Shown: positions 16,968 through 32,000, counted from the stretch's first letter. The stretch: DNA of 32,000 nucleotides from Caedimonas varicaedens (GCA_001192655.1 BBVC01000020.1:30001-62000); one strand, 5' to 3'. Numbers and translations: made by a program. Notes: generated by a model not told the origin, from the sequence alone.

Positions 16968-18201
16968 TTATGCCGCGAGAGCCTGTGAACGATAACCCAA
17001 AGCTTCGGCAATATGCCAGGATCTTAACTCTTCACTGGCTTCCAGATCAGCCAGAGTACGTGCAACGCGAATAACACGATGGTATCCCCGTGCGGATAGC
17101 TTTAATTTATCCGAAGCCTGGGAAAGCAATTGCCGACTATCCTGATCCAGAGGTGCTATTTCCTCAAGATATTGACCACTGACTTCAGAATTAAGTTTGA
17201 TGGAAGAATTTTTATATCGTTCGGTTTGACGTTGACGAGCTTGAGCGACACGTTTGGCGACGTCAAAACTTCCTTCCTGAGGGGTGGGGAGAGAAAGATC
17301 ATGAGCAGAGACGGCGGGAACAAAAACCTGAAAATCAATACGATCCAGCAAGGGACCTGAAAGTTTCGCCTGATAATCCAAAGCGCATTTCGGGACGCGT
17401 GAACAGGCTCGTCCGGGGTCATCCATATATCCACATCGACAAGGATTCATGGCAGCCACAAGTTGAAAGCGAGCAGGATAAGTGACATGGGCGTTGGCGC
17501 GCGCCACAGTGACTTGGCCTGTTTCAAGGGGTTGTCTCAATGCTTCCAGGGCGCTGCGTTGAAATTCGGGGAATTCATCCAGAAAGAGCACCCCCCGATG
17601 AGCAAGTGTAATTTCACCGGGTAATGCCCGATGTCCGCCCCCAATAAGGGCAGGAAGTGAAGCAGAATGATGAGGGTCTCGAAAAGGGCGCTCCCGCAAA
17701 AGTCTTCCATTGGAAAGATGGCCGGCGATACTATGAATCATGGTGACTTCAAGCGCTTCTTCTGCTGTCAGAGGAGGAAGAATGCCCGGAAGACGGGCGG
17801 CCAACATGGATTTTCCAGCGCCTGGCGGCCCCATCATCAGAAGATTATGTCCCCCTGATGCCGCAACCTCTAAGGCACGTTTGGTGCTTTCCTGACCTTT
17901 AATATCTTTCAGATCTGCGTGATTTGAATTGCTCTCTGCAAGAAGCGGTGTTGGTGGAGATAAAAGCTGGTTCCCCTTAAAATGATTAATGAGCGCCAGC
18001 AGAGAAGGAGAAGCCAGAATTTCTATCTCTTGCGCCCACGCCGCTTCAGCACCACAGCTTTGCGGACAAATCAGTCCCAGATCACGGGCAGACGCTTGAA
18101 GAGCCGCTGATAAAATCCCTGACACATTGGAAAGTGTTCCATCTAGCGCCAGCTCACCCAGCGCAATAAAGCCTGACAACTCTTCCCGTGGCAGAACATC
18201 A
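16968..18201 (-). pseudogene. comM: comM/yifB Mg-chelatase-like AAA+ ATPase, 5'-truncated by IS21 insertion
   Basis: Walker A GPPGAGKSMLA, Walker B VLFLDEFPEF, ARFQLVAAMNPCRCG, C-terminal SARGYHRVIRVARTLADL. The reading frame stays open upstream of the track TTG start (..HDVLPREELSGFIALGELALDG) until the IS21 end at 18202. By my recollection of family length, about 90-100 N-terminal residues (Lon-like domain) are missing. Confidence 0.85.
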
Positions 18202-18262
18202 TGTTAGCGCCGGAGGTAAAATGATACAGATCATCGGTTGAATTTTGATACACCCACGCATT

Positions 18263-18281
18263 AACTCCTTTTCAAAGGAGT
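18263..18281 (+). promoter_or_regulatory. hairpin sequestering the istA Shine-Dalgarno (present in every IS21 copy)
   Basis: AACTCCTTT TC AAAGGAGTT palindrome. The 3' arm contains AAGGAG, which ends 11 nt upstream of the istA ATG (18291). Confidence 0.4.
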
Positions 18282-18290
18282 TTAGGAATA

Positions 18291-20807
<2,517 letters not shown>

Positions 20808-21711
20808 TAGCTAACAACATATAAAACGGTCATATTTTATTATCCTGAAATAATTGCTCGATAGAACACCTTTTTTTGCGTCTAATTGCTTTTGCTTGTG
20901 CCCATTTATGCTCGATGGGATTAAAGTCTGGAGAATAAGGAGGCAGATACAGCACGATATGCCCTGCCTCAGCAATTGCTTTTTGCATCGCTTTTCCCTT
21001 ATGAAAGGTGGCATTATCCAAAATAAGGACGCTTTTAGGAGGCAGTTTCGGAAGTAAATCGTCAATGATCCATTGTGTAAACACCTCGGTATTAATCGAG
21101 AAGCAGAACAAGCTCACGGTCAATAGCAGACCTTGGAATAAGGCGCCGATGACATTCGTTCGTCCCTTTGCTCCCCAATCATGAATCCCCTCACATCTCT
21201 TTCCTTTTGGAGAATAACCATGAGTGCGTGGCATATGGTGTGCAAATCCAGATTCATCAAGAGAAATGATAGGATGCCCTGCTTCTTCATAAGCTTTCAG
21301 CTCTTGACAAAAAGTAGCACGCTTTTCTGGATCGGCCTTGGGATGTTTGAGCGTTTTTTTTATAGGTCACATTCAAGCGTTTTAAAGCGTGCCATATCCC
21401 CATAGAGCTCACACCAAGACGTTCTGCTCTCTCGTACTGATAAGCATCAGGATAAAGCTGTATATCTTCTTTAAGGGCATCCATATTAAGCTTAGTGGCT
21501 GGTTTATGACGATGTGTCTGAGGCTCAGGCTTCTTGACCCATCTGACAAGACTGGTCACTCCAACACCAAAGAGATCCGCCGTTTCAGCAAAACTCAAAT
21601 TTTTCTTCTTTTTTACAGATAAAACACGAAGTCTAAAATCTAATGAATAGGTCATGGAATAATCCTCTTAAAAATTATCCATAATATAACCATTTTAAAG
21701 GTTTTTAGCTA
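20808..21711 (-). mobile_element. IS630-family insertion sequence, copy 2 (complete), inserted in IS21 copy B
   Basis: Same ends as copy 1. TA duplication at 20806-20807 and 21712-21713. Target GGGATGT-TA-GATTTTG of istA. Confidence 0.9.
20830..21655 (-). CDS. IS630-family DDE transposase (two frames joined at the A8 run)
   Basis: The track ORF translations (20830-21234, 21287-21655) are identical to those of copy 1. T8 on plus at 21354-21361. Confidence 0.85.
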
Positions 21712-21755: not shown

Positions 21756-22592
21756 GTGGCTCTGGGTCTTTCCCCTTGGAAAAGTCCCTATGAGCTTTAT
21801 ATCGAAAAAACCACCAACGATCCTCTGTCTCTTCAGACTGCAACAACAACCCTTCAAGAATGGGGACATCGCTTGGAAAATATTGTTGCCCTTAAATATC
21901 AGAATGAAACAGGGTATGCGGTCGTACCAGGATTTAAGTGTCACTACCTTAAATACCCCTTTCTCACCGCCAGCCCTGACCGCCTTGTTTATACCAAAGA
22001 TGGACATGGCAAGGCTCTTAGAGGTTTGGAGATCAAGACAGTGGATGCCTTCTGCCGAGAAAAATGGGGAACTTCGGGAACAACTTGGGACGGGGTAGAT
22101 ATCAACCAATGTCCCATCCCCTACCATTACTATATCCAAGTGGTCGCTTATATAGCGGTTCTGGGCATGGACACCTGGGACTTGGCTGTTCTGATCGGGG
22201 GTAACGATTATCGGGTTTATACCTTTATGCGTAATCTTGACGTTGAAGACAAGATTCTCGAAGAAGCCCGCGCTTTTTGGGAAGGCTTCGTGGTTCAAAA
22301 GGTTGCTCCTCCCATCGACTTTATGTCCGAAGGGGTTCAGCGCTTGATTTCTAAACTCAACACCCCTTTGCAAGATGTGGAAACCTTTCTTGACCAGCAT
22401 TGGACAGACAAGGTGAAGCATCTCATGGATACCTCTGAAATGGCAACCCTTGCCACCAAGAAAGTCAAGGAAATGAAAGCCGAGCTTCGTCATTTTATGG
22501 GGGACGCCTCTATCGCCAAGTTGCAAGGGGGTGGGGCTGTCTGCGTCAAGATCGCACGGGATGGCTCTGCTCGAATGAGTTTTAAAGTGTAA
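21756..22592 (+). CDS. YqaJ-like phage recombination exonuclease (PD-(D/E)XK), N-terminus probably clipped
   Basis: GGSEVAVALGLSPWKSPYELY, ASPDRL and LEIKT motifs. The track start is a GTG. The frame is open back to 21699, into the IS630 end. By my recollection of family N-terminal length, about 10-20 N-terminal codons appear to be missing. Confidence 0.75.
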   Translation: MALGLSPWKSPYELYIEKTTNDPLSLQTATTTLQEWGHRLENIVALKYQNETGYAVVPGFKCHYLKYPFLTASPDRLVYTKDGHGKALRGLEIKTVDAFCREKWGTSGTTWDGVDINQCPIPYHYYIQVVAYIAVLGMDTWDLAVLIGGNDYRVYTFMRNLDVEDKILEEARAFWEGFVVQKVAPPIDFMSEGVQRLISKLNTPLQDVETFLDQHWTDKVKHLMDTSEMATLATKKVKEMKAELRHFMGDASIAKLQGGGAVCVKIARDGSARMSFKV

Positions 22593-22624
22593 CGGAAATA
22601 TAAAATAGGAAAGGAATAGAAAAA

Positions 22625-23185
22625 ATGACGCAAAATATCGAACAAGCTCTTGAGTCCATCAGCTTGGAAAAGCAAGCGCTGGAACAAAAGCAATCGGCTC
22701 TTCAACAAGAACATTCTGCTCTGGCAGGACAACTCAAGACGTTATCGCTGAGTTATCGTCAACTCTCGAAGGTCTGCGGAAAAGAGCAGAACGGAGAAGT
22801 GGGAATTTATACAGGCATGACTCTTACCGATGCCGTCCAAGATGTTCTCTCAACATGGGACAAGCCGATGACCACTGCCCAGATTGCCCATGCGTTGACT
22901 GAAGGGGGATATCTGTCAACATCAAGTCGGTTTAACAGCATGGTGCATTCTATTATTAAACGCCGAGACGAAACCTTTAAGCGTACGCCTGACGGAAAAT
23001 GCTGGATGCTGTGCTCTCAAGTTTTGGAAATAGAAGAAGAAATAGAAGAGACCGACATAGCGGAAATTGATGATACAGAAATTGAGCAACAAGCAACGGA
23101 ACCTGACAAGGCAGAAGACGATGAGACCGTTGAAAAGTTAGCTCAAGTGTTTGTCAAAAACAAGACGCTCACACTCTCTCTCTAA
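22625..23185 (+). CDS. coiled-coil + winged-helix (HARE-HTH-like) protein with a strongly acidic C-terminal tail
   Basis: N-terminal heptad region (LEKQALEQKQSALQQEHSAL). wHTH-like LTDAVQDVLSTWDKPMTTAQIAHALTEGGY...FKRTPDGKCWML. Tail EIEEEIEETDIAEIDDTEIEQQATEPDKAEDDE. Confidence 0.6.
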   Translation: MTQNIEQALESISLEKQALEQKQSALQQEHSALAGQLKTLSLSYRQLSKVCGKEQNGEVGIYTGMTLTDAVQDVLSTWDKPMTTAQIAHALTEGGYLSTSSRFNSMVHSIIKRRDETFKRTPDGKCWMLCSQVLEIEEEIEETDIAEIDDTEIEQQATEPDKAEDDETVEKLAQVFVKNKTLTLSL

Positions 23186-23203
23186 AGAAAAGGATGGTGA
23201 ATA

Positions 23204-24154
23204 ATGTTACAGAATAAAATACAAGCGATTGCGTCAATGCCTGAAGACAAAACTGTCTTCGGCAATATAGACGAGGTCTTTAAATTGGCTCAGTTTATAG
23301 CTAAAAGCGAATTCTTCCCTGCTTGGAAGAACAAGCCCCATGATGCGGCGGTGGCGATCCTGTTTGGTCAAAGTATTGGTCTTTCTTGGGGGCATAGCCT
23401 TCTCAATATTTCCATGATTAACGGAAGACCTACAGTGTGGGGGGATGCCATGCTGGCGTTGTGTAAAAAGTCCCCTTCGTTTGAAGATATGGACGAAGAG
23501 TATAACGAAGAAACCAAGACGGCGATCTGCCTTGTCAAAAGAAAAGGATACAAAGAACAAGTCCGTACTTTTTCTTACGAGGACGCTCAACGGGCAGGAC
23601 TGGTTAAAAAAGATAACTGGGTTAAGTATCCCAAGCGGATGCTTCAGATGCGCGCCAGAGCTTTTGCTTTACGGGATGTGTTCCCTGATATTCTGCAAGG
23701 GTTAAGTAGCGCTGAAGAAGTGATGGACTATCCTGATTCAGCGAAGCTTAAAGAGGCATCTACTTCTAATGTGGTCTCGTTCCCCATACAGGATAATTCT
23801 GTAACGGAATTACCGCAGGAATCGCCTCGTGAAGCACCAAAGGCAATCCCTTATCAACGTCCTGAATGGATTGAGGGGGGTCTGCCTGTAACGCCTCGGT
23901 TAGAAAAGAAAGAAACGACTACTGAAGTCAGCGAAGTCAAGCCTGCTTCCCTCTCTCTCCAGCAATTTGAAGAGAATCTGGCAAAGGTCAGCAAGGGAAT
24001 TTCTGTTACACCTGTTGTCAAACCCAAGACATCTGTTGATATGATGCGCGAACGCATGGAAGAGCAGAAGCGTCATCAGCAAGTAAAAGGCATGGAAGTT
24101 CTGGCACGATTGAAGCAAATGACAGCTTCTTTTCAATCTCAGGGGCAGGTGTAA
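23204..24154 (+). CDS. recT: RecT-family single-strand annealing protein
   Basis: FGQSIGLS..INGRPTVWGDAMLAL...WVKYPKRMLQMRARAFALRDVFPDILQG resembles the RecT core. Low-complexity C-terminal extension. Located next to the YqaJ exonuclease. Confidence 0.7.
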   Translation: MLQNKIQAIASMPEDKTVFGNIDEVFKLAQFIAKSEFFPAWKNKPHDAAVAILFGQSIGLSWGHSLLNISMINGRPTVWGDAMLALCKKSPSFEDMDEEYNEETKTAICLVKRKGYKEQVRTFSYEDAQRAGLVKKDNWVKYPKRMLQMRARAFALRDVFPDILQGLSSAEEVMDYPDSAKLKEASTSNVVSFPIQDNSVTELPQESPREAPKAIPYQRPEWIEGGLPVTPRLEKKETTTEVSEVKPASLSLQQFEENLAKVSKGISVTPVVKPKTSVDMMRERMEEQKRHQQVKGMEVLARLKQMTASFQSQGQV

Positions 24155-24155
24155 G

Positions 24156-24332
24156 ATGGACGTTTTAATGGTGCCCCGTGCCGAGGTTCGGCAAGTCCTC
24201 GTTGATCTGGAAACCTTCCTTGATCTGGGACTTTGGGGCTATCTCTATCAAGCCATGGCAGAGCTTGAGGAAATATTGGGTGAGGATGCCATCTCGTCAA
24301 AAAAGAACGAAAATCATGACTTTTCGACTTGA
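24156..24332 (+). CDS. small acidic hypothetical protein (58 aa), below the ORF-track length cut-off
   Basis: The ATG at 24156 lies 1 nt after the recT stop. MDVLMVPRAEVRQVLVDLETFLDLGLWGYLYQAMAELEEILGEDAISSKKNENHDFST reads more protein-like than the overlapping track ORF 24178-24360. Confidence 0.35.
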   Translation: MDVLMVPRAEVRQVLVDLETFLDLGLWGYLYQAMAELEEILGEDAISSKKNENHDFST

Positions 24333-24435: not shown

Positions 24436-27009
24436 ATGAATGAATCAATAATGTTTATAAAAGAAAAACTAAGCCAAAAATTTTCATTTGGCAAGCGCTT
24501 TGATAAAAAATCTGTCAAGCGCCTGATCACACACCTTGTTCTGCTGGCGTTCATCAACCAGAATCTGGCGTTTGCAACCAACGGCATCATCGAACTGGAT
24601 TTTGAAGGGTCTGAGAACCCTCAACGACTTCATACTATTATTCCCTCTTCCAAGATTCAGGATGTGAGCTATATAGAAATTGATGCCGAACAGAAACAAG
24701 CCACCCTTTATAAAAAAGGTGACGGTGAAGAAGTTCACCCGCTTGCGCCTTTTTCTCTTCCATCTGTTGCCGTTTATCAAGGAGATGTTGCTCATAACCT
24801 CTGGGGCTTGGAACAAGAGACGATCAAACTCTTTTTGCAAGCCAGTTCGGCTTGGCTTATCCCTTTAGATGAAGACGGCTATAAGCTGGAATTTAAGGGA
24901 CGACTGTTGGGGGGGATGAAGCAATCAGGAGGCAATCAAAAAAACATGATTTACCCATGTAGTAAAGCTCCAAAAACAGATACTTCCTGCTGGGTGAAAG
25001 GAGGAAATTTCTATGCTCCAGATTCTAGCTGGATTGGAAAAAATCCTGGAAACATCAGTATTATTTCTAATCCAAATTATAGCCAAACAGGTGGTGGCGG
25101 TGGCTCTAAAGGGACAAGGTCTGGAGGCTCTGGATGGCAGGGTATCTTAGGCAGGGGTTGGGCAGAAATAAAAGCGAATGGTGACAAAGCCAGAGATAGA
25201 ATGCGCCAACAGCAAGAAAATCTTAAAAAGCTGAGTACTGTTGGTCAATCTGTTGAAATTTATAAACGACCAGAGATTATTATCCCCGAAAGTCCTTTCC
25301 CGCGAGTACAAACCTATCAACCTTCTACCAAAGAACCCTTTCTAACGGGACCATCCTTGGAGGCTCAATACTCAAGACTCAGGGTGCTGTACAATATGGC
25401 CGATCGTTGGGAATGGTCGGAAATTTACGAGTATGCAAAAGTAATCGGTGTTTCCAGAGAGGAAATTAAAAAATACAATTTAACCCAAAGACATGCAAAG
25501 GGTGCAGGATTTTCTTCAGAGTATTTTAAAGAAGTAACAGAAGAGGAAGAAAGAAATGCGCTGAAAAAGGAGGAGCAGGAGGAAGAGAGAAAAGAAACAA
25601 TCAGACAATATGAACAAGAGTCATCTGAGGATGCTGCATCTTTGTTTCATCATGTTCCTTCTCAGTATGAAGTAACTCCTAAATATTTTGCACAATGCGC
25701 TTCTGATGCGGGCATGACACCTTCTCAAGCGCTTAACATTATCCTCAACCCAGACGCTGATAATTTTTATGATCGCGCTAGGCTTGCCTCTAGACAGAAA
25801 TGGCTGGGAGGTCCACAGAATACAACGGTGTTTGAACTTGAGGGGATTACCAATGCACAAGCTCATGAATATATTAAGCAAGGTTATCATGAAGGCGACA
25901 TGCCTAAGATTTCTAACAATCTCATTTCTCAAAGAGGAGCTTCTTTGTTTGAGGGCGTAACCCATGATTACTTTGTTGCACAAGCTGAAAAAGCAAAAAT
26001 GACGCCTTCTCAGGCGCTTAGAATGATCTTCAATCCTACACCTGACAACTTCTACGATCGGGTTAGGCTTGCATCACAACAGAACTGGCTAGGAGGGAAG
26101 AATGATACGACAGCGTTTGAGTTTGAAGACCTAACCAATGCACAAGCCTATCAATATATCGTTGATGGCTACAAACCTCATGATTTTCCTACATTGTCTA
26201 ACAGGCTTATCTCTCAACGAGGGGCTGCTTTATTTGATGTAGAACCTCAATATTTTAGCAGACAAGCTGAAAAAGCGGGCATGACCTCTATAGAAGCGTT
26301 AAATATCCTCATGAATCCTGCGCTTGAGAATTTCTATGATCGCGTGATGCTCGTCTCAAGAGATAATTGGTTAGGAGGACCACAGGATGGCACAGCGTTT
26401 GAGCTTGAGGAGTTGACGAATGAAGAGGCTTACCAATATCTCTCTGAAGGCTATAAACCTCATGATTTTCCTACATTATCTCATAGGCTCGTTTCTCAAC
26501 GCTTGGGCATTGAGGCAGATCAAACCTTTGACGATCAAGTGCTGGAAGATTGGGGAGTCAATGATTGGCGGGAGAATCCCCGTAATGAACTCGAAGTGCC
26601 TCAATTTATGCGAGTCGGATTGACGGACTATTTAGCTAAAAAAGCTTTTGAAAAAATAGTACGGACCTTTACCCCTAAAACTCAAGAGCTTTTGAAGGGA
26701 TTACATAGATATAAGAGAGAGCTTTTTGCGAGAGAAAAGATGCCAAAGAGCAAAACAACCCTTAAAGCTGCCGAACAGGAGCTTAAAGGTAAACAAATTC
26801 CTTTAGCTGAACAAAGAGGTAGAATTTATGACCATGTTGAAAAAGTTAAATCTTCTCAAAATGGTCTTGTACGGCTTATAAACGATATTAAAGCTCGTCT
26901 TGGCTATCCTGAGCTTCCTCAAATTGAAAGACAGGCATTAGAAAACCAACTATCTAAAACCAGTAAATTACTTGATCATACGGAAAAATTTGTACCAAGG
27001 AGTAAATGA
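24436..27009 (+). CDS. secreted 857-aa multi-domain repeat protein with a distinct C-terminal module (candidate toxin/effector)
   Basis: GGAG lies 9 nt upstream of the ATG. Basic N-region plus hydrophobic core ..LVLLAFINQNLAFA. Gly-rich linker, Glu/Lys-rich segment, 3-4 tandem ~95-aa units, and a ~165-aa helical basic C-terminus. No recognised catalytic motif. Confidence 0.85.
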   Translation: MNESIMFIKEKLSQKFSFGKRFDKKSVKRLITHLVLLAFINQNLAFATNGIIELDFEGSENPQRLHTIIPSSKIQDVSYIEIDAEQKQATLYKKGDGEEVHPLAPFSLPSVAVYQGDVAHNLWGLEQETIKLFLQASSAWLIPLDEDGYKLEFKGRLLGGMKQSGGNQKNMIYPCSKAPKTDTSCWVKGGNFYAPDSSWIGKNPGNISIISNPNYSQTGGGGGSKGTRSGGSGWQGILGRGWAEIKANGDKARDRMRQQQENLKKLSTVGQSVEIYKRPEIIIPESPFPRVQTYQPSTKEPFLTGPSLEAQYSRLRVLYNMADRWEWSEIYEYAKVIGVSREEIKKYNLTQRHAKGAGFSSEYFKEVTEEEERNALKKEEQEEERKETIRQYEQESSEDAASLFHHVPSQYEVTPKYFAQCASDAGMTPSQALNIILNPDADNFYDRARLASRQKWLGGPQNTTVFELEGITNAQAHEYIKQGYHEGDMPKISNNLISQRGASLFEGVTHDYFVAQAEKAKMTPSQALRMIFNPTPDNFYDRVRLASQQNWLGGKNDTTAFEFEDLTNAQAYQYIVDGYKPHDFPTLSNRLISQRGAALFDVEPQYFSRQAEKAGMTSIEALNILMNPALENFYDRVMLVSRDNWLGGPQDGTAFELEELTNEEAYQYLSEGYKPHDFPTLSHRLVSQRLGIEADQTFDDQVLEDWGVNDWRENPRNELEVPQFMRVGLTDYLAKKAFEKIVRTFTPKTQELLKGLHRYKRELFAREKMPKSKTTLKAAEQELKGKQIPLAEQRGRIYDHVEKVKSSQNGLVRLINDIKARLGYPELPQIERQALENQLSKTSKLLDHTEKFVPRSK
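25672..26507 (+). repeat. three tandem ~94-95-codon domain repeats inside the 857-aa ORF
   Basis: Units start at 25672, 25957 and 26239. Shared skeleton YF..QAEKAGMTPSQAL.I..NP..DNFYDR.RLAS..NWLGG...T.FE.E.LTNAQAY.YI..GYKPHDFPTLS.RL.SQR. Confidence 0.85.
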
Positions 27010-27413
27010 TGAAACTAAAGAGTGTTAAAAAAATCAGAGATGAATGGTGTGATTCTGACGATGAGAATATCTCTAAAGAGTCTTTGGAAATGCTCAAACA
27101 TCATCTGGAAGGAACTGACGTAGATAATTTGTGTGAAGCTATAAGCCTAGTAACAGATGCGCGCATTATGCAATTTGTACCTTTGATGGCAAAGCACTTA
27201 ACAAATGAATGGTCTATCGTCAGAGAGTTTACAATTGGTAAATTACTAGGATTACTCAAACTTCCTGAATATGCTGAGATTGGTTTAAAAATGGCACAAG
27301 AAGATGAGAGTAGTGGAGTGAGGTGTTTGGCGGCGACTCATTTAGGAGATGTTTTAGACAAAACACCAGAAAATTTGCGGCATATAATTGCTTCTTATAT
27401 GTACGATGTATGA
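27006..27413 (+). CDS. small HEAT/ARM-like helical-repeat protein, translationally coupled to the 857-aa ORF (candidate immunity/chaperone)
   Basis: The ATG at 27006 overlaps the upstream TGA (ATGA), with a second ATG at 27009. AAGGAG at 26997-27002. HEAT-like signature EDESSGVRCLAATHLGDVL and paired helices. Confidence 0.75.
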   Translation: MMKLKSVKKIRDEWCDSDDENISKESLEMLKHHLEGTDVDNLCEAISLVTDARIMQFVPLMAKHLTNEWSIVREFTIGKLLGLLKLPEYAEIGLKMAQEDESSGVRCLAATHLGDVLDKTPENLRHIIASYMYDV

Positions 27414-27473
27414 CTACAGATATTATGCAGACGAAGTTAAACAAGTATATTTATCAATCGGTCATGTCAGTCA

Positions 27474-27869
27474 ATGGGTATTTCTATCATTGATAGACCA
27501 ACAACTGTAGGTAATCCGGAATATAAGAAGCATATAATCCTGCTTTGCTTAGTCAATTCAAAGAGAAATATGCCTTATAATCGTAACAAGAAAAGAGCTC
27601 ACTCTATGCCCCAGCCCATCCCCCTCAAACAAAACACGATCTGGCTTCGCACATTGTGCGGTCTGATTGACGAGGGAAGTTTTATTACTTCTGTAGACTT
27701 ACAATCTCGCGGAGATACGCTGACGGTATCGCTGGTGGCACGTCAACGGGAGGGCAACAAGGCTGAAACGACTGACACGATGAAACGCCTGAAAAAGTCC
27801 TTGAATCGGTGGCAGGGAAAGGTAGAGAGGAAAGAAGAGGGAGCATTTGTAAGGTTGACAAATTATTGA
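27474..27869 (+). CDS. hypothetical protein (start uncertain; likely 27606, giving 87 aa)
   Basis: The ORF is open from 27474, but by eye the sequence looks more GC-rich from about 27600 on (no count made), where MPQPIPLKQNTIWLRTLCGLIDEG... begins. No recognised family. Confidence 0.45.
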   Translation: MGISIIDRPTTVGNPEYKKHIILLCLVNSKRNMPYNRNKKRAHSMPQPIPLKQNTIWLRTLCGLIDEGSFITSVDLQSRGDTLTVSLVARQREGNKAETTDTMKRLKKSLNRWQGKVERKEEGAFVRLTNY

Positions 27870-28100: not shown

Positions 28101-29102
28101 ATGAAATCTCTCAATGTAGTTTCATTATTCTCAGGAGCGGGAGGTCTTGATTTAGGCTTTAAAAAAGCGAGCTTTCATACAATATACGCTAATGAATACG
28201 ATAAAACTATATGGGCAACGTTTGAGCATAATTTTCCTAATGTAAAACTTGATAAAAGAGATATAAGGAAAATTGAAAGTATTGAAATACCTGATTGTGT
28301 TGGCATTATTGGCGGTCCTCCTTGTCAAAGCTGGAGTGAAGCAGGTTCTTTACGTGGAATTAATGATCCAAGGGGTCAACTATTTTTTGATTATATAAGA
28401 ATTATTAAAGATAAAAAACCTTTATTTTTTCTGGCTGAAAATGTATCAGGAATTTTGCATGATAGAAATAAGAAAGCATTTCAAAGCATTATAAAAAACT
28501 TTGAAGAAATTGGTTATAATGTGCAGTATAGATTACTAAATGCCAAATATTACAATGTGCCACAAGATAGAAAAAGAGTTTTTATAGTTGGCTTTTTGAA
28601 TGATATTAATTTTGAATTTCCTACATTGGATAATAAATTTAAAACTCTTAAAGATACTATATTTGATTTGAAAGATAATGCAAAAAGTTATAATGCAAAA
28701 GAGTTGGATAAGTTTAATCACGAATACTATACTGGAGGATTTTCAACTATTTTTATGTCAAGAAATCGCGTAAGAAGTTGGCATGAACAATCTTTCACAA
28801 TTCAAGCAGGAGGTAGACACGCTCCATTGCATCCACAAGCTCCCACAATGGAGTTCATAGAACAAAATAAGAGAGCATTTAACAGAGAAAAAGAGCATTT
28901 ATATAGGAGATTTTCAGTGCGTGAATGCGCTAGAATCCAAACTTTTCCTGATGATTTTCAGTTTATTTATAATAATATTTTAGATGGATATAAAATGATT
29001 GGCAATGCCGTCCCTGTAAATTTAGCTTATGCAATAGCAACTCAAATTTTAAAGTATCTGTCATTAACAATACTACCATTTTACATGCGATTAACAATAT
29101 AA
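28101..29102 (+). CDS. DNA (cytosine-5)-methyltransferase, M.HaeIII/M.NgoPII-like (probable GGCC specificity)
   Basis: Motif [13 protein letters not shown], motif [14 protein letters not shown] (LAENVSG), QDRKRVF, TRD-region [30 protein letters not shown], motif [20 protein letters not shown], motif [10 protein letters not shown]. Strong resemblance to M.HaeIII as I remember it. Confidence 0.9.
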
Positions 29103-29908
29103 TTAATAACAATTTATATAATCTTGATAAATATAAGAAAATTAGTTATAATATTCGCATTAATACTACTGGAGAGGCTTTAGAAAGCCTAATCAAGGAT
29201 GCTTTATGCGGTCAATTTCATTTAAATGAAAGAGAAAGAATATTATTACAAAGCAAATATTTTTCTTATACTGGTAATCAAAATAATCCTCCAGATTTAA
29301 TTATCAGAAATAGCGATGCTTTTGAAATTAAAAAAATTGAAAGCAATGAAGGTTCAATTGCTTTAAATAGCTCTTTCCCAAAAGATAAGTTGTACAGCAA
29401 TAGCAGTATGATCACACATGCTTGCAAATATTGAGGATAGCTGGAAAGCAAAAGATATATGCTATATTATAGGATGCGTTGATAAAAAACAGTCAATAAA
29501 AAGTTTATGGTTTATTTATGGAGATTGCTATTGTGCAAATTCGGGGATATACACGAAGATAAAAGAAAAATAACAAATAGCATTCAAGAATTTGGTATTG
29601 AATTAAGCGAGACAAATGAAATTGCAAAAATAAAGAAAATTGATCCTCTTGGAATAACCGATCTAAGAGTGCGAGGAATGTGGCATATAAAACATCCAAG
29701 CAAGGTGTTTCAATATATAACCACAAAACAATCAAAACCTCACATTAAAGCATTAATGCTGACAAGCAAATTTGAATCATTTGAGATGGGAATAAGAAAG
29801 CAAATAGCAACTAAATGTAATTTGCAAAATGTAAAAATACAAAATCCTAATAATCCTGCAAATTTACTTGATGCAACTTTAATTGAATATGAATTTAAAG
29901 CTAGCTAA
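29078..29908 (+). pseudogene. NgoPII/HaeIII-type restriction endonuclease pseudogene (two frameshifts, no canonical start)
   Basis: Three consecutive frame segments read as one protein: [47 protein letters not shown] (to 29434); IEDSWKAKDICYIIGCVDKK..IYTKIKEK* (29430-29573); ITNSIQEFG..IDPLGITDLRVRGMWHIK..IQNPNNPANL (to 29908). Shifts lie near 29430 and in the A5 run at 29566-29570. Confidence 0.75.
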
Positions 29909-30171: not shown

Positions 30172-30451
30172 CTCACACAGGCAATCTATTATTTGTCGAG
30201 TTCCTGTTTTGCAACATGAAATAAGTCATTTTATCAATATGTTATGCATGAGAAGGTCACTAGGAATGTCCAGAAGCTTGCGCCATACGCCCATCCTTCA
30301 AAATTGTTGTTGTCGCAGTGAGAAAGACTCAAAGCGCCAGTGGCACAAAAGATTTAGAATCAAGGAAAGAATTAATTTATCTCAATCCTTTTCATTTAAA
30401 GATTTTATCCCTGTCCATTTTAGAGACGTCAGTAACCCTTATGAAATGGAG

Positions 30452-31158
30452 TGTTAGCGCCGGAGGTAAAATGATACAGATCATCGGTTGAATTTTGATA
30501 CACCCACGCATTAACTCCTTTTCAAAGGAGTTTAGGAATAATGATTCAGTGGGAACAAACGATGGAAATAAAAATATTACGCCGACAAGGCAAGAGTCTA
30601 AGAAGGATCGCTCATGAGGTTGGTATGGCCGTGAATACAGTTCGTAAATATCTCCAACATGAAGGCAGACCTTTTTATAAGAAGAGAAAAACGGTTGAGA
30701 CTAAACTTGATCCATATAAACCTTATTTGCAAGAAAGGGTCAAACAGGCTCGCCCTTTTTGTCTTCCTGCAACGGTTTTGCTACGGGAGATACGCGATCA
30801 AGGATATAGGGGTGGCGTGACACAATTAAGGTTATATCTGAATTCTTTAACCCCTGTGGTCTGTGAGGAAGTCGTTAGATTTGAAACAGAACCAGGCGCA
30901 CAAATGCAGATGGATTGGATTGAATTTCGAAAAGGGAAAAACCCTCTATCCGCTTTTGTCGCAACCCTTGGTTATAGTCGGGTCAGCTATGTCTGCTTTG
31001 TGGAGAATGAGAAATTATCGACATTACTTCAATGCCATGAAGATGCATTTGATTATTTTGGCGGTATCCCCTCTCAAGCCCTTTATGACAATATGAAGAC
31101 TGTTATTCTGGCAAGAGATGCCTATGGTTTAGGGAAGCATCGCTATGCTGGGATGTTA
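30452..31158 (+). mobile_element. IS21-family copy C, 5' 707 bp, interrupted by IS630 at the same site as copy B
   Basis: Same left end TGTTAGCGCC. Aligns with copy A at the segments compared; the one difference seen is CGCTTTAATTCTGGG -> CGCTATGCTGGG (net -3 nt) just before the insertion point. Confidence 0.85.
30541..31158 (+). pseudogene. istA: istA pseudogene (interrupted by IS630 copy 3)
   Basis: The first 203 aa match IstA of copy A except the ..HRYAGML end, and the sequence then runs into the IS630 terminus. Confidence 0.9.
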
Positions 31159-31807
31159 TAGCTAACAACATATAAAACGGTCATATTTTATTATCCTGAA
31201 ATAATTGCTCGATAGAACACCTTTTTTTGCGTCTAATTGCTTTTGCTTGTGCCCATTTATGCTCGATGGGATTAAAGTCTGGAGAATAAGGAGGCAGATA
31301 CAGCACGATATGCCCTGCCTCAGCAATTGCTTTTTGCATCGCTTTTCCCTTATGAAAGGTGGCATTATCCAAAATAAGGACGCTTTTAGGAGGCAGTTTC
31401 GGAAGTAAATCGTCAATGATCCATTGTGTAAACACCTCGGTATTAATCGAGAAGCAGAACAAGCTCACGGTCAATAGCAGACCTTGGAATAAGGCGCCGA
31501 TGACATTCGTTCGTCCCTTTGCTCCCCAATCATGAATCCCCTCACATCTCTTTCCTTTTGGAGAATAACCATGAGTGCGTGGCATATGGTGTGCAAATCC
31601 AGATTCATCAAGAGAAATGATAGGATGCCCTGCTTCTTCATAAGCTTTCAGCTCTTGACAAAAAGTAGCACGCTTTTCTGGATCGGCCTTGGGATGTTTG
31701 AGCGTTTTTTTTATAGGTCACATTCAAGCGTTTTAAAGCGTGCCATATCCCCATAGAGCTCACACCAAGACGTTCTGCTCTCTCGTACTGATAATCATCA
31801 GTGATAA
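31159..31807 (-). mobile_element. IS630-family copy 3, truncated (649 bp) by insertion of IS21 copy D
   Basis: Same terminus TAGCTAACAAC after TA (31157-31158). Aligns with copy 1 up to about 31794; the last ~13 nt differ slightly (G->T at 31795, extra T at 31802). The IS21 left end starts at 31808. Confidence 0.85.
31181..31807 (-). pseudogene. IS630 transposase, N-terminal ~70 codons lost to the IS21 insertion
   Basis: The catalytic half (31181-31585) is intact. The HTH half is cut; track ORF 31638-31859 is a chimera reading into IS21. Confidence 0.85.
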
Positions 31808-32000
31808 TGTTAGCGCCGGAGGTAAAATGATACAGATCATCGGTTGAATTTTGATACACCCACGCATTAACTCCTTTTCAAAGGAGTTTAGGAATAATGA
31901 TTCAGTGGGAACAAACGATGGAAATAAAAATATTACGCCGACAAGGCAAGAGTCTAAGAAGGATCGCTCATGAGGTTGGTATGGCCGTGAATACAGTTCG
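31808..32000 (+). mobile_element. IS21-family copy D (left end; continues beyond the window)
   Basis: TGTTAGCGCCGGAGGTAAAATG... matches the other left ends in the stretches compared. Confidence 0.85.
31897..32000 (+). CDS. istA: istA, 5' part (truncated by the window end)
   Basis: The ATG lies 89 nt from the IS end, as in copy A. MIQWEQTMEIKILRRQGKSLRRIAHEVGMAVNTV... Confidence 0.8.
   Translation, partial: MIQWEQTMEIKILRRQGKSLRRIAHEVGMAVNTV

What the first reader, a model, noticed from the sequence alone, without database searches (positions are those of the whole stretch)
24436..27413. Secreted 857-aa repeat protein coupled to a 135-aa HEAT-like protein: candidate undescribed toxin-immunity (or effector-chaperone) pair
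Seen in sequence: the 857-aa ORF has a Sec-type N-terminus (basic region plus LVLLAFINQNLAFA) and a Gly-rich linker (GGGGGSKGTRSGGSG). It continues with a Glu/Lys-rich segment and three to four ~95-aa tandem domains. The last ~165 aa (from about nt 26508) form a helical Lys/Arg-rich module unrelated to the repeats. Its TGA overlaps the ATG of the next ORF (ATGA at 27006-27009, AAGGAG at 26997-27002). That ORF encodes a 135-aa helical-repeat protein with a HEAT-like signature (EDESSGVRCLAATHLG). Established knowledge: polymorphic toxin-immunity loci typically combine a secretion or repeat scaffold, a variable C-terminal module and a tightly coupled small downstream gene, and helical-repeat proteins are one recurrent immunity fold. 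Inference: I recognise no known catalytic or adhesin family in the repeats or the C-terminal module. The pair sits in a mobile island between a phage recombination module and an R-M remnant, so it may represent a new toxin or effector family with its cognate partner.
Basis: partly seen in the sequence, partly recalled or inferred. Interest (0 to 1): 0.75.

Follow-up and report, generated by a model that had tools for sequence, protein, structure and literature searches.

The report
Ntox28 polymorphic toxin with HEAT immunity
This is a secreted bacterial "polymorphic toxin" whose tip belongs to a known RNA-cutting toxin family (Ntox28), followed by its damaged HEAT-repeat antidote gene, so the pair is real but the toxin family is not new; what is new is the carrier protein and its presence in the Paramecium "killer" symbiont Caedimonas.

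Summary
Both ORFs exist as described (857 aa, 24436-27009; 135 aa, 27006-27413; ATGA overlap; AAGGAG). The window is from Caedimonas varicaedens, and UniRef already names the two proteins "Bacterial toxin 28 domain-containing" and "HEAT repeat protein".

- **Toxin tip.** Residues 742-857 are a Pfam Ntox28 domain (37.4 bits, cutoff 25). A family profile reaches the solved CdiA-CT tRNase of E. coli 536 and aligns its catalytic His with H800.
- **Polymorphic family.** Homologues share a signal peptide (AFA|T), a ~115-aa N-terminal domain and a junction motif (PFDDQVLEDWG). They carry at least seven different C-termini, each with a different downstream gene.
- **Immunity partner.** The HEAT-like gene follows an Ntox28 tip in all seven partner-gene loci read (five distinct contexts), on the Caedimonas-type scaffold, a CdiA-like protein and a stand-alone orphan.
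- **Corrections.** There are three repeats, not four. The toxin family is known. The 135-aa ORF is the front of a ~190-codon gene broken by five frame changes, and "ORF131" is its tail. The genome is 454-only, so error versus decay is unresolved.
- **Still new.** The carrier scaffold, the Ntox28-HEAT pairing and a "T...HxxK" active-site subclade are undescribed.

A link to the unidentified killer-trait toxin is speculative.

The parts
24156..24332 (+). Small conserved ORF (58 aa) between RecT and the toxin gene. Function unknown.
   Evidence: 79 % aa identity to an ORF in the same position in L001. No Pfam hit.
24436..27009 (+). Polymorphic toxin gene, 857 aa (NCBI Cva_00546).
   Evidence: ORF. 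Exact match in NCBI/UniRef and 14 homologues with variable C-termini.
24436..24576 (+). Sec-type signal peptide (aa 1-47) with an unusually long basic n-region. Predicted cleavage AFA|T.
   Evidence: Hydropathy and the -3/-1 rule. The AFA/AWA|T site is conserved in all ten family members examined. Inference only: no dedicated predictor was run.
24577..24918 (+). Conserved N-terminal scaffold domain (aa 48-161, 'IIELDF...YKLEFKG.LLGGM'), beta-rich, with no known family.
   Evidence: Alignment A4 has 33 invariant columns. No Pfam, NCBIfam or PHROG hit. Rare: only 14 more fragments in 5.8 billion proteins. AF2 confidence below 50.
25087..25134 (+). Gly-rich linker (aa 218-233, TGGGGGSKGTRSGGSG).
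   Evidence: Read from the sequence. Present in most homologues.
25135..25653 (+). Helical segment shared with a subset of homologues, including the E/K-rich stretch (aa 234-406).
   Evidence: Shared with P0003-P0006. 88 % nt identity to L002/L003 over 24850-25325.
25654..26511 (+). Three tandem ~95-aa repeats (helical with a short beta-hairpin). Function unknown.
   Evidence: Units at aa 407-503, 502-598 and 596-692 with 48-58 % identity. The repeat finder family D4. AF2 pLDDT 70-83. No fold match in PDB or BFVD.
26527..26556 (+). Junction (demarcation) motif FDDQVLEDWG, after which homologues diverge.
   Evidence: The motif is found in 12 of 15 family members, with unrelated sequence after it.
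26659..27006 (+). Ntox28 toxin domain (aa 742-857). Predicted catalytic H800 in YDHVEK, and an FVPR tail.
   Evidence: PF15605 at 37.4 bits against a cutoff of 25. 237 relatives, 138 of the 149 best at the extreme C-terminus. Profile A5 hits PDB 5J5V_B 'tRNA nuclease CdiA' at E = 7.6e-6.
26997..27002 (+). Shine-Dalgarno-like AAGGAG ahead of the immunity start codons (ATG at 27006 and 27009).
   Evidence: Read from the sequence.
27006..27413 (+). Immunity ORF as assembled (135 aa, or 134 aa from 27009). It covers the first 8 of 11 helices of a HEAT-like solenoid.
   Evidence: All 18 invariant family columns lie in the retained part.
27006..27580 (+). Full extent of the immunity gene (about 190 codons), readable only across five +/-1 frame changes. 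'ORF131' (27474-27869) starts inside it and is not an independent gene.
   Evidence: Frameshift-aware alignment to P0023, P0017 and P0030. tblastn of homologues extends to about 27536.
21756..24154 (+). Phage-type recombination module: YqaJ exonuclease, a 186-aa ORF and RecT. RecT and ORF58 are also linked to the toxin in L001.
   Evidence: Pfam and PHROG hits. RecT is 76 % identical in L001.
20093..21655 (.). Left copy of the repeated unit [IS21 5' fragment + IS630] that brackets the island.
   Evidence: 100 % identical direct repeats with a spacing of about 10,353 nt. Pfam rve/HTH_38, DDE_3 and HTH_Tnp_IS630.
30448..31800 (.). Right copy of the repeated unit [IS21 5' fragment + IS630].

Best explanation
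The locus is a polymorphic toxin-immunity module on an IS-bracketed, phage/plasmid-derived island in the chromosome of Caedimonas varicaedens.

The 857-aa protein would be made with a Sec signal peptide and exported to the periplasm (inferred). Its conserved N-terminal domain and variable middle region (here three ~95-aa repeats) would act as the carrier. The junction motif FDDQVLEDWG marks the point where recombination swaps toxin tips. The last 116 aa are an Ntox28 domain, an all-helical RNase that by homology to CdiA-CT of E. coli 536 would cut tRNA in the target cell using H800 (inferred).

The translationally coupled downstream gene encodes an acidic, cytoplasmic HEAT-repeat protein. It would bind and block the basic toxin tip and so protect the producer and its kin (inferred from strict co-occurrence).

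In this assembly the immunity gene is interrupted after codon 135. The pair is therefore either partly decayed or affected by 454 sequencing errors. The route across the outer membrane and the natural target (rival bacteria or the ciliate) are not established.
For: Shown.
- Ntox28 scores above Pfam's cutoff.
- All sampled relatives of the tip are Ntox28 at 33-104 bits, on Rhs, CdiA-like and unassigned carriers.
- The tip sits at the extreme C-terminus in 138 of the 149 best relatives.
- A profile of the tip reaches the solved tRNase CdiA-CT EC536, with YDH aligned on WDH and the inactive crystal variants reading WDA. The EC536 active site is D155/W176/H178/E181 (PMC9086364).
- Scaffold homologues carry Ntox28, colicin-E3 'Cytotoxic', Ntox37 and at least four unassigned tips after the same junction motif.
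- The downstream gene changes with the tip: HEAT-like, DUF6980, DUF7945 and two unassigned families.
- The HEAT-like gene lies directly downstream of an Ntox28 tip, with overlapping stop and start, in L001, L005, L007, L009 and L011/L012.
- HEAT-like fold: AF2 pLDDT 93, with Foldseek and profile hits to HEAT/alphaRep.
- The signal peptide is conserved, the toxin tip is basic and the immunity protein is acidic with no signal peptide.
Against: - No activity data exist for this protein or its subclade.
- Two of the four EC536 active-site residues differ here (T775 for D155, K803 for E181). This is a co-varying subclade state shared by 47 of 131 relatives, not random decay.
- The AF2 model of the toxin is poor (pLDDT 50; tip below 50), so the fold of the tip could not be compared directly.
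- The immunity gene is broken by five frame changes.
- No secretion system or outer-membrane partner lies in the window. No toxin-immunity interface could be modelled.
Confidence: 0.85

Rival explanations
1. Relic locus. The module arrived on a phage/plasmid element and is now decaying in a reduced, IS-ridden endosymbiont genome. The toxin is not expressed or not functional, and the immunity gene is a pseudogene.
For: - Five frame changes in the immunity gene.
- The neighbouring NgoPII-like REase is broken in the same way.
- The island is bracketed by IS21/IS630 copies, and a truncated comM-like gene abuts it.
Against: - The 2.6-kb toxin ORF is intact, and its tip aligns end to end with relatives.
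- The out-of-frame immunity segments still match homologues closely, so any decay is very recent.
- The genome is 454-only (PMC4645214), and by visual inspection of the flanking bases printed four of the five frame changes lie at short homopolymers, so they may be sequencing errors.
- The retained 134 aa hold all 18 invariant residues of the family.
Confidence: 0.3
2. Anti-host weapon. This toxin family is, or contributes to, the killer-trait toxin ('paramecin') that kappa symbionts deliver to sensitive Paramecium with R-bodies. The cognate immunity protein would be the strain-specific antidote.
For: [quoted passage not shown]
- This family has swappable tips with specific antidotes, which would fit genotype-specific symptoms.
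- Homologues sit on protelomerase/RepA linear phage-plasmid contigs.
- The window copy is linked to phage RecT/YqaJ genes.
Against: - No reb (R-body) genes are in the window or in any homologous contig.
- Characterised Ntox28 toxins are antibacterial.
- The immunity protein has no export signal, so it is unclear how it could protect the ciliate.
- The immunity gene is broken in a strain taken from a killer stock.
- A tRNase is an unlikely cause of rapid behavioural symptoms (own reasoning).
Confidence: 0.07
3. Addiction module. The pair stabilises the mobile element (phage-plasmid or island) by killing cells that lose it, rather than acting on other cells.
For: - Family members are nearly always on plasmid or phage-plasmid backbones with RepA_C, Rep3 or ResT/TelK.
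- Polymorphic toxin systems have been proposed as addiction devices in a related Holosporales symbiont (PMC8163844).
Against: - A conserved Sec signal peptide and an ~700-aa carrier are not needed for an intracellular toxin-antitoxin system.
- The same tip occurs on the contact-dependent and Rhs delivery scaffolds used between cells.
Confidence: 0.1
4. One reading: a new effector with a dedicated HEAT-like chaperone, rather than a toxin with an immunity protein.
For: Tight translational coupling and a helical-repeat partner are also seen in effector-chaperone pairs.
Against: - The partner follows the Ntox28 tip even when the tip is a stand-alone 118-aa orphan or sits on a CdiA-like protein.
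- The partner is replaced by unrelated genes when the same scaffold carries another tip. A chaperone would track the scaffold or the secretion route.
Confidence: 0.03

Closest known systems
CdiA-CT / CdiI of uropathogenic E. coli 536 (Ntox28 tRNase of a contact-dependent inhibition system; PDB 5J43, 5J5V)
   Same: - Same Pfam family for the toxin tip (PF15605).
- A profile of the window's subfamily finds the EC536 chain at E = 7.6e-6, with the catalytic His and the preceding aromatic-Asp aligned.
- The tip is C-terminal, and an immunity gene follows directly.
   Different: - No TPS/FHA/VENN CdiA scaffold and no CdiB.
- No C-terminal GYGI tail for CysK binding. The tail here is FVPRSK, and none of 149 relatives ends in GYGI.
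- D155 and E181 are replaced by T775 and K803.
- The immunity protein is a HEAT-like solenoid with no detectable similarity to any CdiI chain in the PDB.
Sec-dependent polymorphic toxins ('T2SS' class of Zhang et al. 2012; for example MafB of Neisseria, from my own knowledge)
   Same: A signal peptide, a conserved N-terminal domain, a short conserved junction motif, swappable C-terminal toxins and a cognate immunity gene downstream.
   Different: - The N-terminal domain, the repeats and the junction motif (FDDQVLEDWG) match no described family. There is no Pfam, NCBIfam or PHROG hit, and no DUF1020.
- No orphan cassettes follow the pair in the window.
Imm-HEAT immunity proteins (Zhang et al. 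2012, PMC3482391)
   Same: An all-alpha HEAT-repeat protein encoded directly after a polymorphic toxin.
   Different: In that survey, Imm-HEAT was paired with Ntox34 and Tox-REase-7, and no immunity family was listed for Ntox28. Here a distinct ~190-aa HEAT-like family is paired with Ntox28.
Polymorphic toxin systems of 'Ca. Bodocaedibacter vickermanii' (Holosporales symbiont of Bodo saltans, PMC8163844)
   Same: Polymorphic toxins with nuclease tips and immunity genes in a related obligate protist symbiont, proposed there to act on or addict the host.
   Different: That symbiont has different toxin tips (AHH, HNH, metallopeptidase) and arrays of orphan modules, and a T6SS was suggested as the export route. 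No sequence relationship was tested here.

Membership tests
Polymorphic toxin system (sensu Zhang/Aravind 2012) | Homologues share the N-terminal region but carry unrelated C-terminal toxin domains. | tested here: met
   Fifteen family members share the signal peptide, the N-terminal domain and the junction motif. Their tips are Ntox28, colicin-E3 Cytotoxic, Ntox37 and at least four unassigned types.
Polymorphic toxin system (sensu Zhang/Aravind 2012) | An immunity gene lies immediately downstream and co-varies with the toxin tip. | tested here: met
   A HEAT-like gene follows Ntox28 in the seven loci read for its homologues (L001, L005, L007, L009-L012; five distinct contexts). DUF6980, DUF7945 and two unassigned families follow other tips.
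Polymorphic toxin system (sensu Zhang/Aravind 2012) | The same toxin tip is found on different delivery scaffolds. | tested here: met
   The tip occurs on a DUF637 CdiA-like protein (L009, P0040), on RHS/YD-shell proteins (P0069, P0113, P0114, P0058, P0128) and as a stand-alone orphan (L005).
Polymorphic toxin system (sensu Zhang/Aravind 2012) | Orphan toxin/immunity cassettes lie downstream of the main gene (frequent but not obligatory). | tested here: not met
   tblastn of all family tips and immunity proteins against the window finds only the main pair.
Ntox28 (PF15605) | The sequence matches the family profile above the curated threshold. | tested here: met
   37.4 bits against a cutoff of 25, E = 3.1e-9, covering profile positions 19-112 of 113. 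Relatives score 33-104 bits.
Ntox28 (PF15605) | The conserved [DN]H motif with the catalytic histidine (H178 of CdiA-CT EC536). | tested here: met
   D799-H800 is present. His is conserved in 130 of 131 relatives and aligns with H178 of EC536.
Ntox28 (PF15605) | The other EC536 active-site residues, Asp155 and Glu181 ('HxxE'). | tested here: not met
   The window has T775 and K803. Across relatives the states are D/E in 63, [T/S/A]/K in 47 and D/K in 0, so this is a separate co-varying subclade.
Ntox28 (PF15605) | An all-alpha fold like PDB 5J43/5J5V. | tested here: inconclusive
   The AF2 model predicts helices in aa 729-847, but pLDDT is below 50 and Foldseek finds nothing.
Ntox28 (PF15605) | tRNA anticodon-loop nuclease activity. 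| not testable with these tools
   This needs biochemistry.
CysK-activated subgroup of Ntox28 (EC536 type) | A C-terminal GYGI tail that inserts into the CysK active site. | tested here: not met
   The protein ends ...EKFVPRSK, and none of 149 relatives ends in GYGI. A CysK-independent Ntox28 is known (Tox28-Rlac, PMC9086364).
CdiA/CdiB contact-dependent inhibition (T5SS) | A TPS domain, FHA repeats, a DUF637/VENN pretoxin region and a cdiB neighbour. | tested here: not met
   The 857-aa protein has no such Pfam hits, and no cdiB is in the window.
HEAT-repeat immunity (Imm-HEAT / Pfam HEAT_2) | A HEAT-like alpha-solenoid fold. | tested here: met
   The model of the full-length homologue has pLDDT 93 and 11 helices. 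Its best PDB matches are CpcE/F, alphaRep, YibA, PP2A-A and importins at TM about 0.55. The sequence profile matches alphaRep at E = 2e-6.
HEAT-repeat immunity (Imm-HEAT / Pfam HEAT_2) | A Pfam HEAT/HEAT_2 score above the curated threshold. | tested here: inconclusive
   The window protein scores 13.6-14.7 bits, below the cutoffs of 23.5 and 27.7. Homologue P0019 passes at 35.7 bits, and the other homologues score 20-22 bits.
CdiI of E. coli 536 (cognate immunity of the characterised Ntox28) | Sequence or fold similarity to the CdiI chain of 5J43/5J5V. | tested here: not met
   No CdiI chain appears among the Foldseek or profile hits.

The most novel reading that the evidence does not exclude
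The Caedimonas-type scaffold family would be the long-sought protein toxin and antidote of the Paramecium killer trait. The family has a Sec signal, a private N-terminal domain and a FDDQVLEDWG junction. It has swappable RNase and other tips, each with a specific immunity gene, carried on linear phage-plasmids. The swappable tips would explain strain-specific symptoms, and the cognate immunity genes would explain strain-specific resistance. The Ntox28 T...HxxK subclade would then be an RNase used against a eukaryote.
Probability: 0.06. Interest if true: 0.9.

Novelty: new member of a known kind. Interest (0 to 1): 0.42.

Why it matters
**For annotation.** Two "hypothetical" genes become an Ntox28 polymorphic toxin and its HEAT-repeat immunity gene. 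ORF131 is removed as spurious.

**For the toxin field.**
- A rare, undescribed Sec-dependent carrier scaffold with its own junction motif and at least seven toxin tips.
- A first candidate immunity family for Ntox28 outside CdiI-EC536.
- A large uncharacterised "T...HxxK" active-site subclade of Ntox28.
- DUF6980 and DUF7945 become candidate immunity families.

**For symbiosis biology.** This is a concrete, testable toxin/antidote candidate on phage-plasmid-like DNA, in an organism whose killer toxin has been unidentified since the 1930s-50s. The evidence for that link is circumstantial.

Tried and rejected
- **PDB sequence searches.** The full toxin and a six-sequence tip profile found nothing relevant. 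Only a 30-sequence profile reached 5J5V.
- **Full-length structure.** The AF2 model was poor (pLDDT 50). Foldseek against PDB and BFVD gave only noise. AFDB50 was unavailable. The folds of the N-terminal domain, the repeats and the tip therefore remain unassigned.
- **Family libraries.** NCBIfam and PHROGs gave no useful hit for either protein. A weak phrog_2846 hit in repeat 3 (E = 1e-4) was not informative.
- **Tandem repeats.** Tandem Repeats Finder does not see the repeats at DNA level.
- **Expression signals.** The promoter and terminator scan was no better than shuffled sequence.
- **Genome scans for the N-terminal domain.** The single-sequence scan found nothing. The alignment scan found one MAG contig, labelled Rhabdochlamydiaceae and possibly mis-binned.
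- **Complex modelling.** A toxin-immunity complex prediction is not possible with the tools offered.
- **Interpretations rejected.** CdiA membership, the CysK-activated subgroup, the effector-chaperone reading, and ORF131 as an independent gene or orphan immunity.


Full report
**1. Observation**

Both ORFs are present as described: 857 aa at 24436-27009 (+) and 135 aa at 27006-27413 (+). The stop and start overlap as ATGA at 27006-27009, with AAGGAG at 26997-27002. A second ATG at 27009 is the likelier start, because all homologues begin MKLK and NCBI annotates 134 aa.

The N-terminus looks like a Sec signal peptide.
- It has a basic n-region (9 K+R), a 12-residue hydrophobic core (mean Kyte-Doolittle 2.1) and A-F-A at -3 to -1.
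- The AFA/AWA|T site is conserved in all ten family members examined, several of which have a canonical 22-aa signal.

The Gly-rich linker and the E/K-rich stretch are as stated. The repeats number exactly three, with a period of 94-95 aa, 48-58 % aa identity and 62-66 % nt identity. They are too diverged for Tandem Repeats Finder.

**2. Identity**

The exact 857-aa sequence is "hypothetical protein Cva_00546 [Caedimonas varicaedens]", which UniRef names "Bacterial toxin 28 domain-containing protein". The partner is Cva_00547, "HEAT repeat protein". C. varicaedens is the kappa "killer" endosymbiont of Paramecium biaurelia. Its only genome is a 454/Newbler draft (PMC4645214).

**3. The toxin tip is a known family**

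- Residues 762-854 match Pfam Ntox28 (PF15605) at 37.4 bits against a gathering cutoff of 25.
- A full scan of 1.84 billion cluster representatives with aa 742-857 gave 237 relatives. Of the 149 best, 138 have the module at the extreme C-terminus of proteins 60-2868 aa long.
- All nine relatives sampled score as Ntox28 (33-104 bits). They include Rhs/YD-shell proteins and a DUF637 CdiA-like protein.
- A six-sequence profile found nothing in the PDB. A 30-sequence profile found "tRNA nuclease CdiA" of E. coli 536 (5J5V_B, E = 7.6e-6). It aligns window Y798-D799-H800 with W-D-H, and the inactive crystal variants read WDA at that spot.
- The literature identifies CdiA-CT(EC536) as an Ntox28 tRNase that needs CysK (PMC5562914; PMC9990079). 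Its active site is Asp155, Trp176, His178 and Glu181. A Ruminococcus homologue is CysK-independent (PMC9086364).

The window protein differs in three respects.
- It lacks the C-terminal GYGI tail. It ends FVPRSK, the usual family tail is [FY][VL]PR, and none of 149 relatives ends in GYGI.
- It has T775 in place of Asp155.
- It has K803 in place of Glu181.

Across 131 aligned relatives the last two positions co-vary perfectly: D/E in 63, [T/S/A]/K in 47 and D/K in none (Fisher p = 9e-20, although this is confounded by phylogeny). The window therefore belongs to a distinct subclade for which I know of no functional study. It is not a decayed copy.

**4. It is a polymorphic toxin on an undescribed scaffold**

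Fourteen homologues, all from metagenomes, share four features.
- The signal peptide.
- A ~115-aa N-terminal domain (IIELDF...YKLEFKG.LLGGM; 33 invariant columns).
- Variable, mosaic middle regions.
- The junction motif PFDDQVLEDWG.KDW.

After the junction they diverge completely. The tips are Ntox28 (window, P0002), colicin-E3 "Cytotoxic" (P0010, with P0003 weak), Ntox37 (P0013) and at least four tips with no Pfam match.

No Pfam, NCBIfam or PHROG family covers the N-terminal domain, the repeats or the junction. The N-terminal domain is rare.
- An alignment search of 5.8 billion proteins added only 14 short fragments.
- A scan of 185,579 species genomes found one MAG contig.

The full-length AF2 model was poor (pLDDT 50; repeats 70-83) and gave no meaningful fold matches.

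**5. The partner is the cognate immunity protein**

Homologues of the 135-aa protein (15 full-length, 179-197 aa) form a small family. In every locus examined the gene lies directly after an Ntox28 tip with overlapping stop and start.

| Locus | Protein carrying the Ntox28 tip |
|---|---|
| L001 | same scaffold, 871 aa |
| L007 | same scaffold with a different middle, 945 aa |
| L011/L012 | same scaffold, 753 aa |
| L009/L010 | CdiA-like, 2159 aa, with DUF637 and an ALENN junction |
| L005 | stand-alone 118-aa orphan beside a SUKH_6 immunity gene |

When the same scaffold carries another tip, the downstream gene is different.

| Tip type | Downstream gene |
|---|---|
| E3-type and P0009/P0012-type | DUF6980 |
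| P0006-type | DUF7945 |
| P0005-type and P0007-type | two unassigned families |

This is the pattern expected of immunity and not of a scaffold-specific chaperone.

- AF2 of a full-length homologue gives pLDDT 93 and an 11-helix solenoid.
- The best PDB folds are HEAT-like: CpcE/F, alphaRep, YibA, PP2A-A and importins at TM about 0.55.
- The sequence profile matches alphaRep HEAT repeats at E = 2e-6. No CdiI chain is hit.
- The toxin tip is basic (26 K+R against 14 D+E). The immunity protein is acidic (24 D+E against 16 K+R) and has no signal peptide.
- Zhang et al. 2012 list Imm-HEAT with other toxins and list no immunity family for Ntox28. The pairing itself therefore appears to be new.

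**6. The immunity gene is broken in this assembly**

The window ORF stops after codon 135, at the end of helix 8 of 11. DNA and protein comparisons show that the gene continues.
- Frame-aware alignment reads [quoted passage not shown], ending at 27578-27580.
- This needs five +/-1 frame changes, at 27412, 27423, 27448, 27473 and 27538.
- "ORF131" (27474-27869) begins with part of this reading and is therefore spurious.

The out-of-frame pieces are still highly similar to homologues. By eye, four of the five changes sit at short homopolymers, and the genome is 454-only. Five errors within 130 nt would nonetheless be unusual for a consensus sequence. The neighbouring NgoPII-like REase gene shows the same kind of clustered frame changes. 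I cannot decide between recent decay and sequencing error.

All 18 invariant family residues lie in the retained 134 aa. A truncated protein might therefore still bind the toxin.

**7. Context**

- Positions 1-18 kb hold housekeeping genes: gyrB, bamE, ligA, ubiA and a comM-like gene.
- The segment YqaJ - ORF186 - RecT - ORF58 - toxin - immunity - Dcm - REase (21.7-30 kb) is bracketed by 100 %-identical direct copies of an [IS21 fragment + IS630] unit.
- L001 shares RecT (76 %) and ORF58 (79 %) upstream of its toxin.
- Other family members sit on contigs with ResT/TelK protelomerase, RepA_C or Rep3, two HU genes, a PQ-loop gene and a CSD gene. That is a linear phage-plasmid-like backbone.
- A TolC-family OEP gene directly follows the pair in two independent loci, which hints at an outer-membrane export partner. 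None is present in the window.
- No reb genes occur in the window or in the homologous contigs.

**8. Mechanism**

Shown:
- Membership of Ntox28.
- Polymorphic architecture.
- Strict tip-immunity co-occurrence.
- A HEAT-like fold.

Inferred:
- Sec export.
- RNase (probably tRNase) action through H800.
- CysK independence.
- Neutralisation by direct binding.
- Recombinational tip exchange at the junction motif.

Unknown:
- Passage across the outer membrane.
- Entry into the target.
- The identity of the target.

**9. Novelty and interest**

The pair is a new member of a known kind. What is new is the scaffold, the Ntox28-HEAT pairing and the T...HxxK subclade.

The most interesting open reading is a link to the killer trait. 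The killer toxin and antidote are still unidentified and are thought to be encoded on phages or plasmids (PMC11909080). Related Holosporales symbionts have been proposed to use polymorphic toxins on their hosts (PMC8163844). The evidence here is circumstantial, and several points argue against it:
- There is no reb linkage.
- The family is antibacterial where it has been tested.
- The immunity protein is not exported.
- The immunity gene is broken.

I give that reading about 6 %.

Noticed in passing
window 27474-27869: The 131-aa ORF downstream of the finding is not a gene of its own. Its first ~21 codons (MGISIIDRPTTVGNPEYKKHI) are the in-frame continuation of the frameshifted immunity gene, and the rest is wrong-frame read-through.
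   Followed up: yes
window 29100-29908: The NgoPII-like restriction endonuclease is not a deletion remnant. Its N-terminal and C-terminal parts read in one frame and a middle part (~29418-29573) reads in another. This is the same clustered frame-change pattern as in the immunity gene. The adjacent Dcm methylase (28101-29102) is intact.
   Followed up: partly
window 20093-21655 and 30448-~31800 (also 18198-18911 and 31804-32000): A composite unit of an IS21 5' fragment plus IS630 is duplicated at 100 % identity, about 10.35 kb apart. It brackets the recombination-toxin-RM segment like a composite transposon. A full IS21 (istA/istB) lies at 18198-20119.
   Followed up: partly
window 16968-18179 (-): The ComM/Mg-chelatase-like gene retains only the end of its N-terminal ChlI domain and abuts the IS21 copy. 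This suggests that the island or an IS inserted into comM, which is a known integration hotspot (own knowledge).
   Followed up: no
L002 10938-12538, L003 5687-7341, L014 2794-4428: A TolC-family outer-membrane protein gene (OEP) directly follows the toxin-immunity pair in two independent scaffold-family loci. It may be the export partner. In L002/L003 it is split into two ORFs.
   Followed up: no
L004 3292-3600, L013 5616-5906, L016 5531-5824: A ~100-aa DUF6980 protein with a CxxC...CxWC motif sits directly after both colicin-E3-type and P0009/P0012-type tips. This makes DUF6980 a candidate immunity family. DUF7945 (L015 2605-3024) plays the same role for another tip.
   Followed up: partly
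L002, L007, L011/L012, L016: Scaffold-family toxins are carried on contigs with a ResT/TelK protelomerase, RepA_C, two HU genes, a PQ-loop protein and a cold-shock protein. This is a recurring linear phage-plasmid-like backbone in freshwater metagenomes.
   Followed up: no
L013 2681-5616: The only species-genome hit for the scaffold is a 10.5-kb contig of a MAG labelled Rhabdochlamydiaceae. There the toxin gene is split into 754-aa and 246-aa ORFs, and a group II intron-type reverse transcriptase lies upstream. The binning may be wrong.
   Followed up: no
window 24156-24332: A 58-aa ORF between RecT and the toxin gene is conserved (79 % aa) at the same position in L001, so it is probably a real small gene of unknown role.
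   Followed up: partly
L005 81-994: The orphan Ntox28/HEAT pair in a chromosomal MAG contig sits beside a SUKH_6 immunity-family gene and near Flp/Tad pilus genes, which suggests a poly-immunity or orphan-cassette locus.
   Followed up: no
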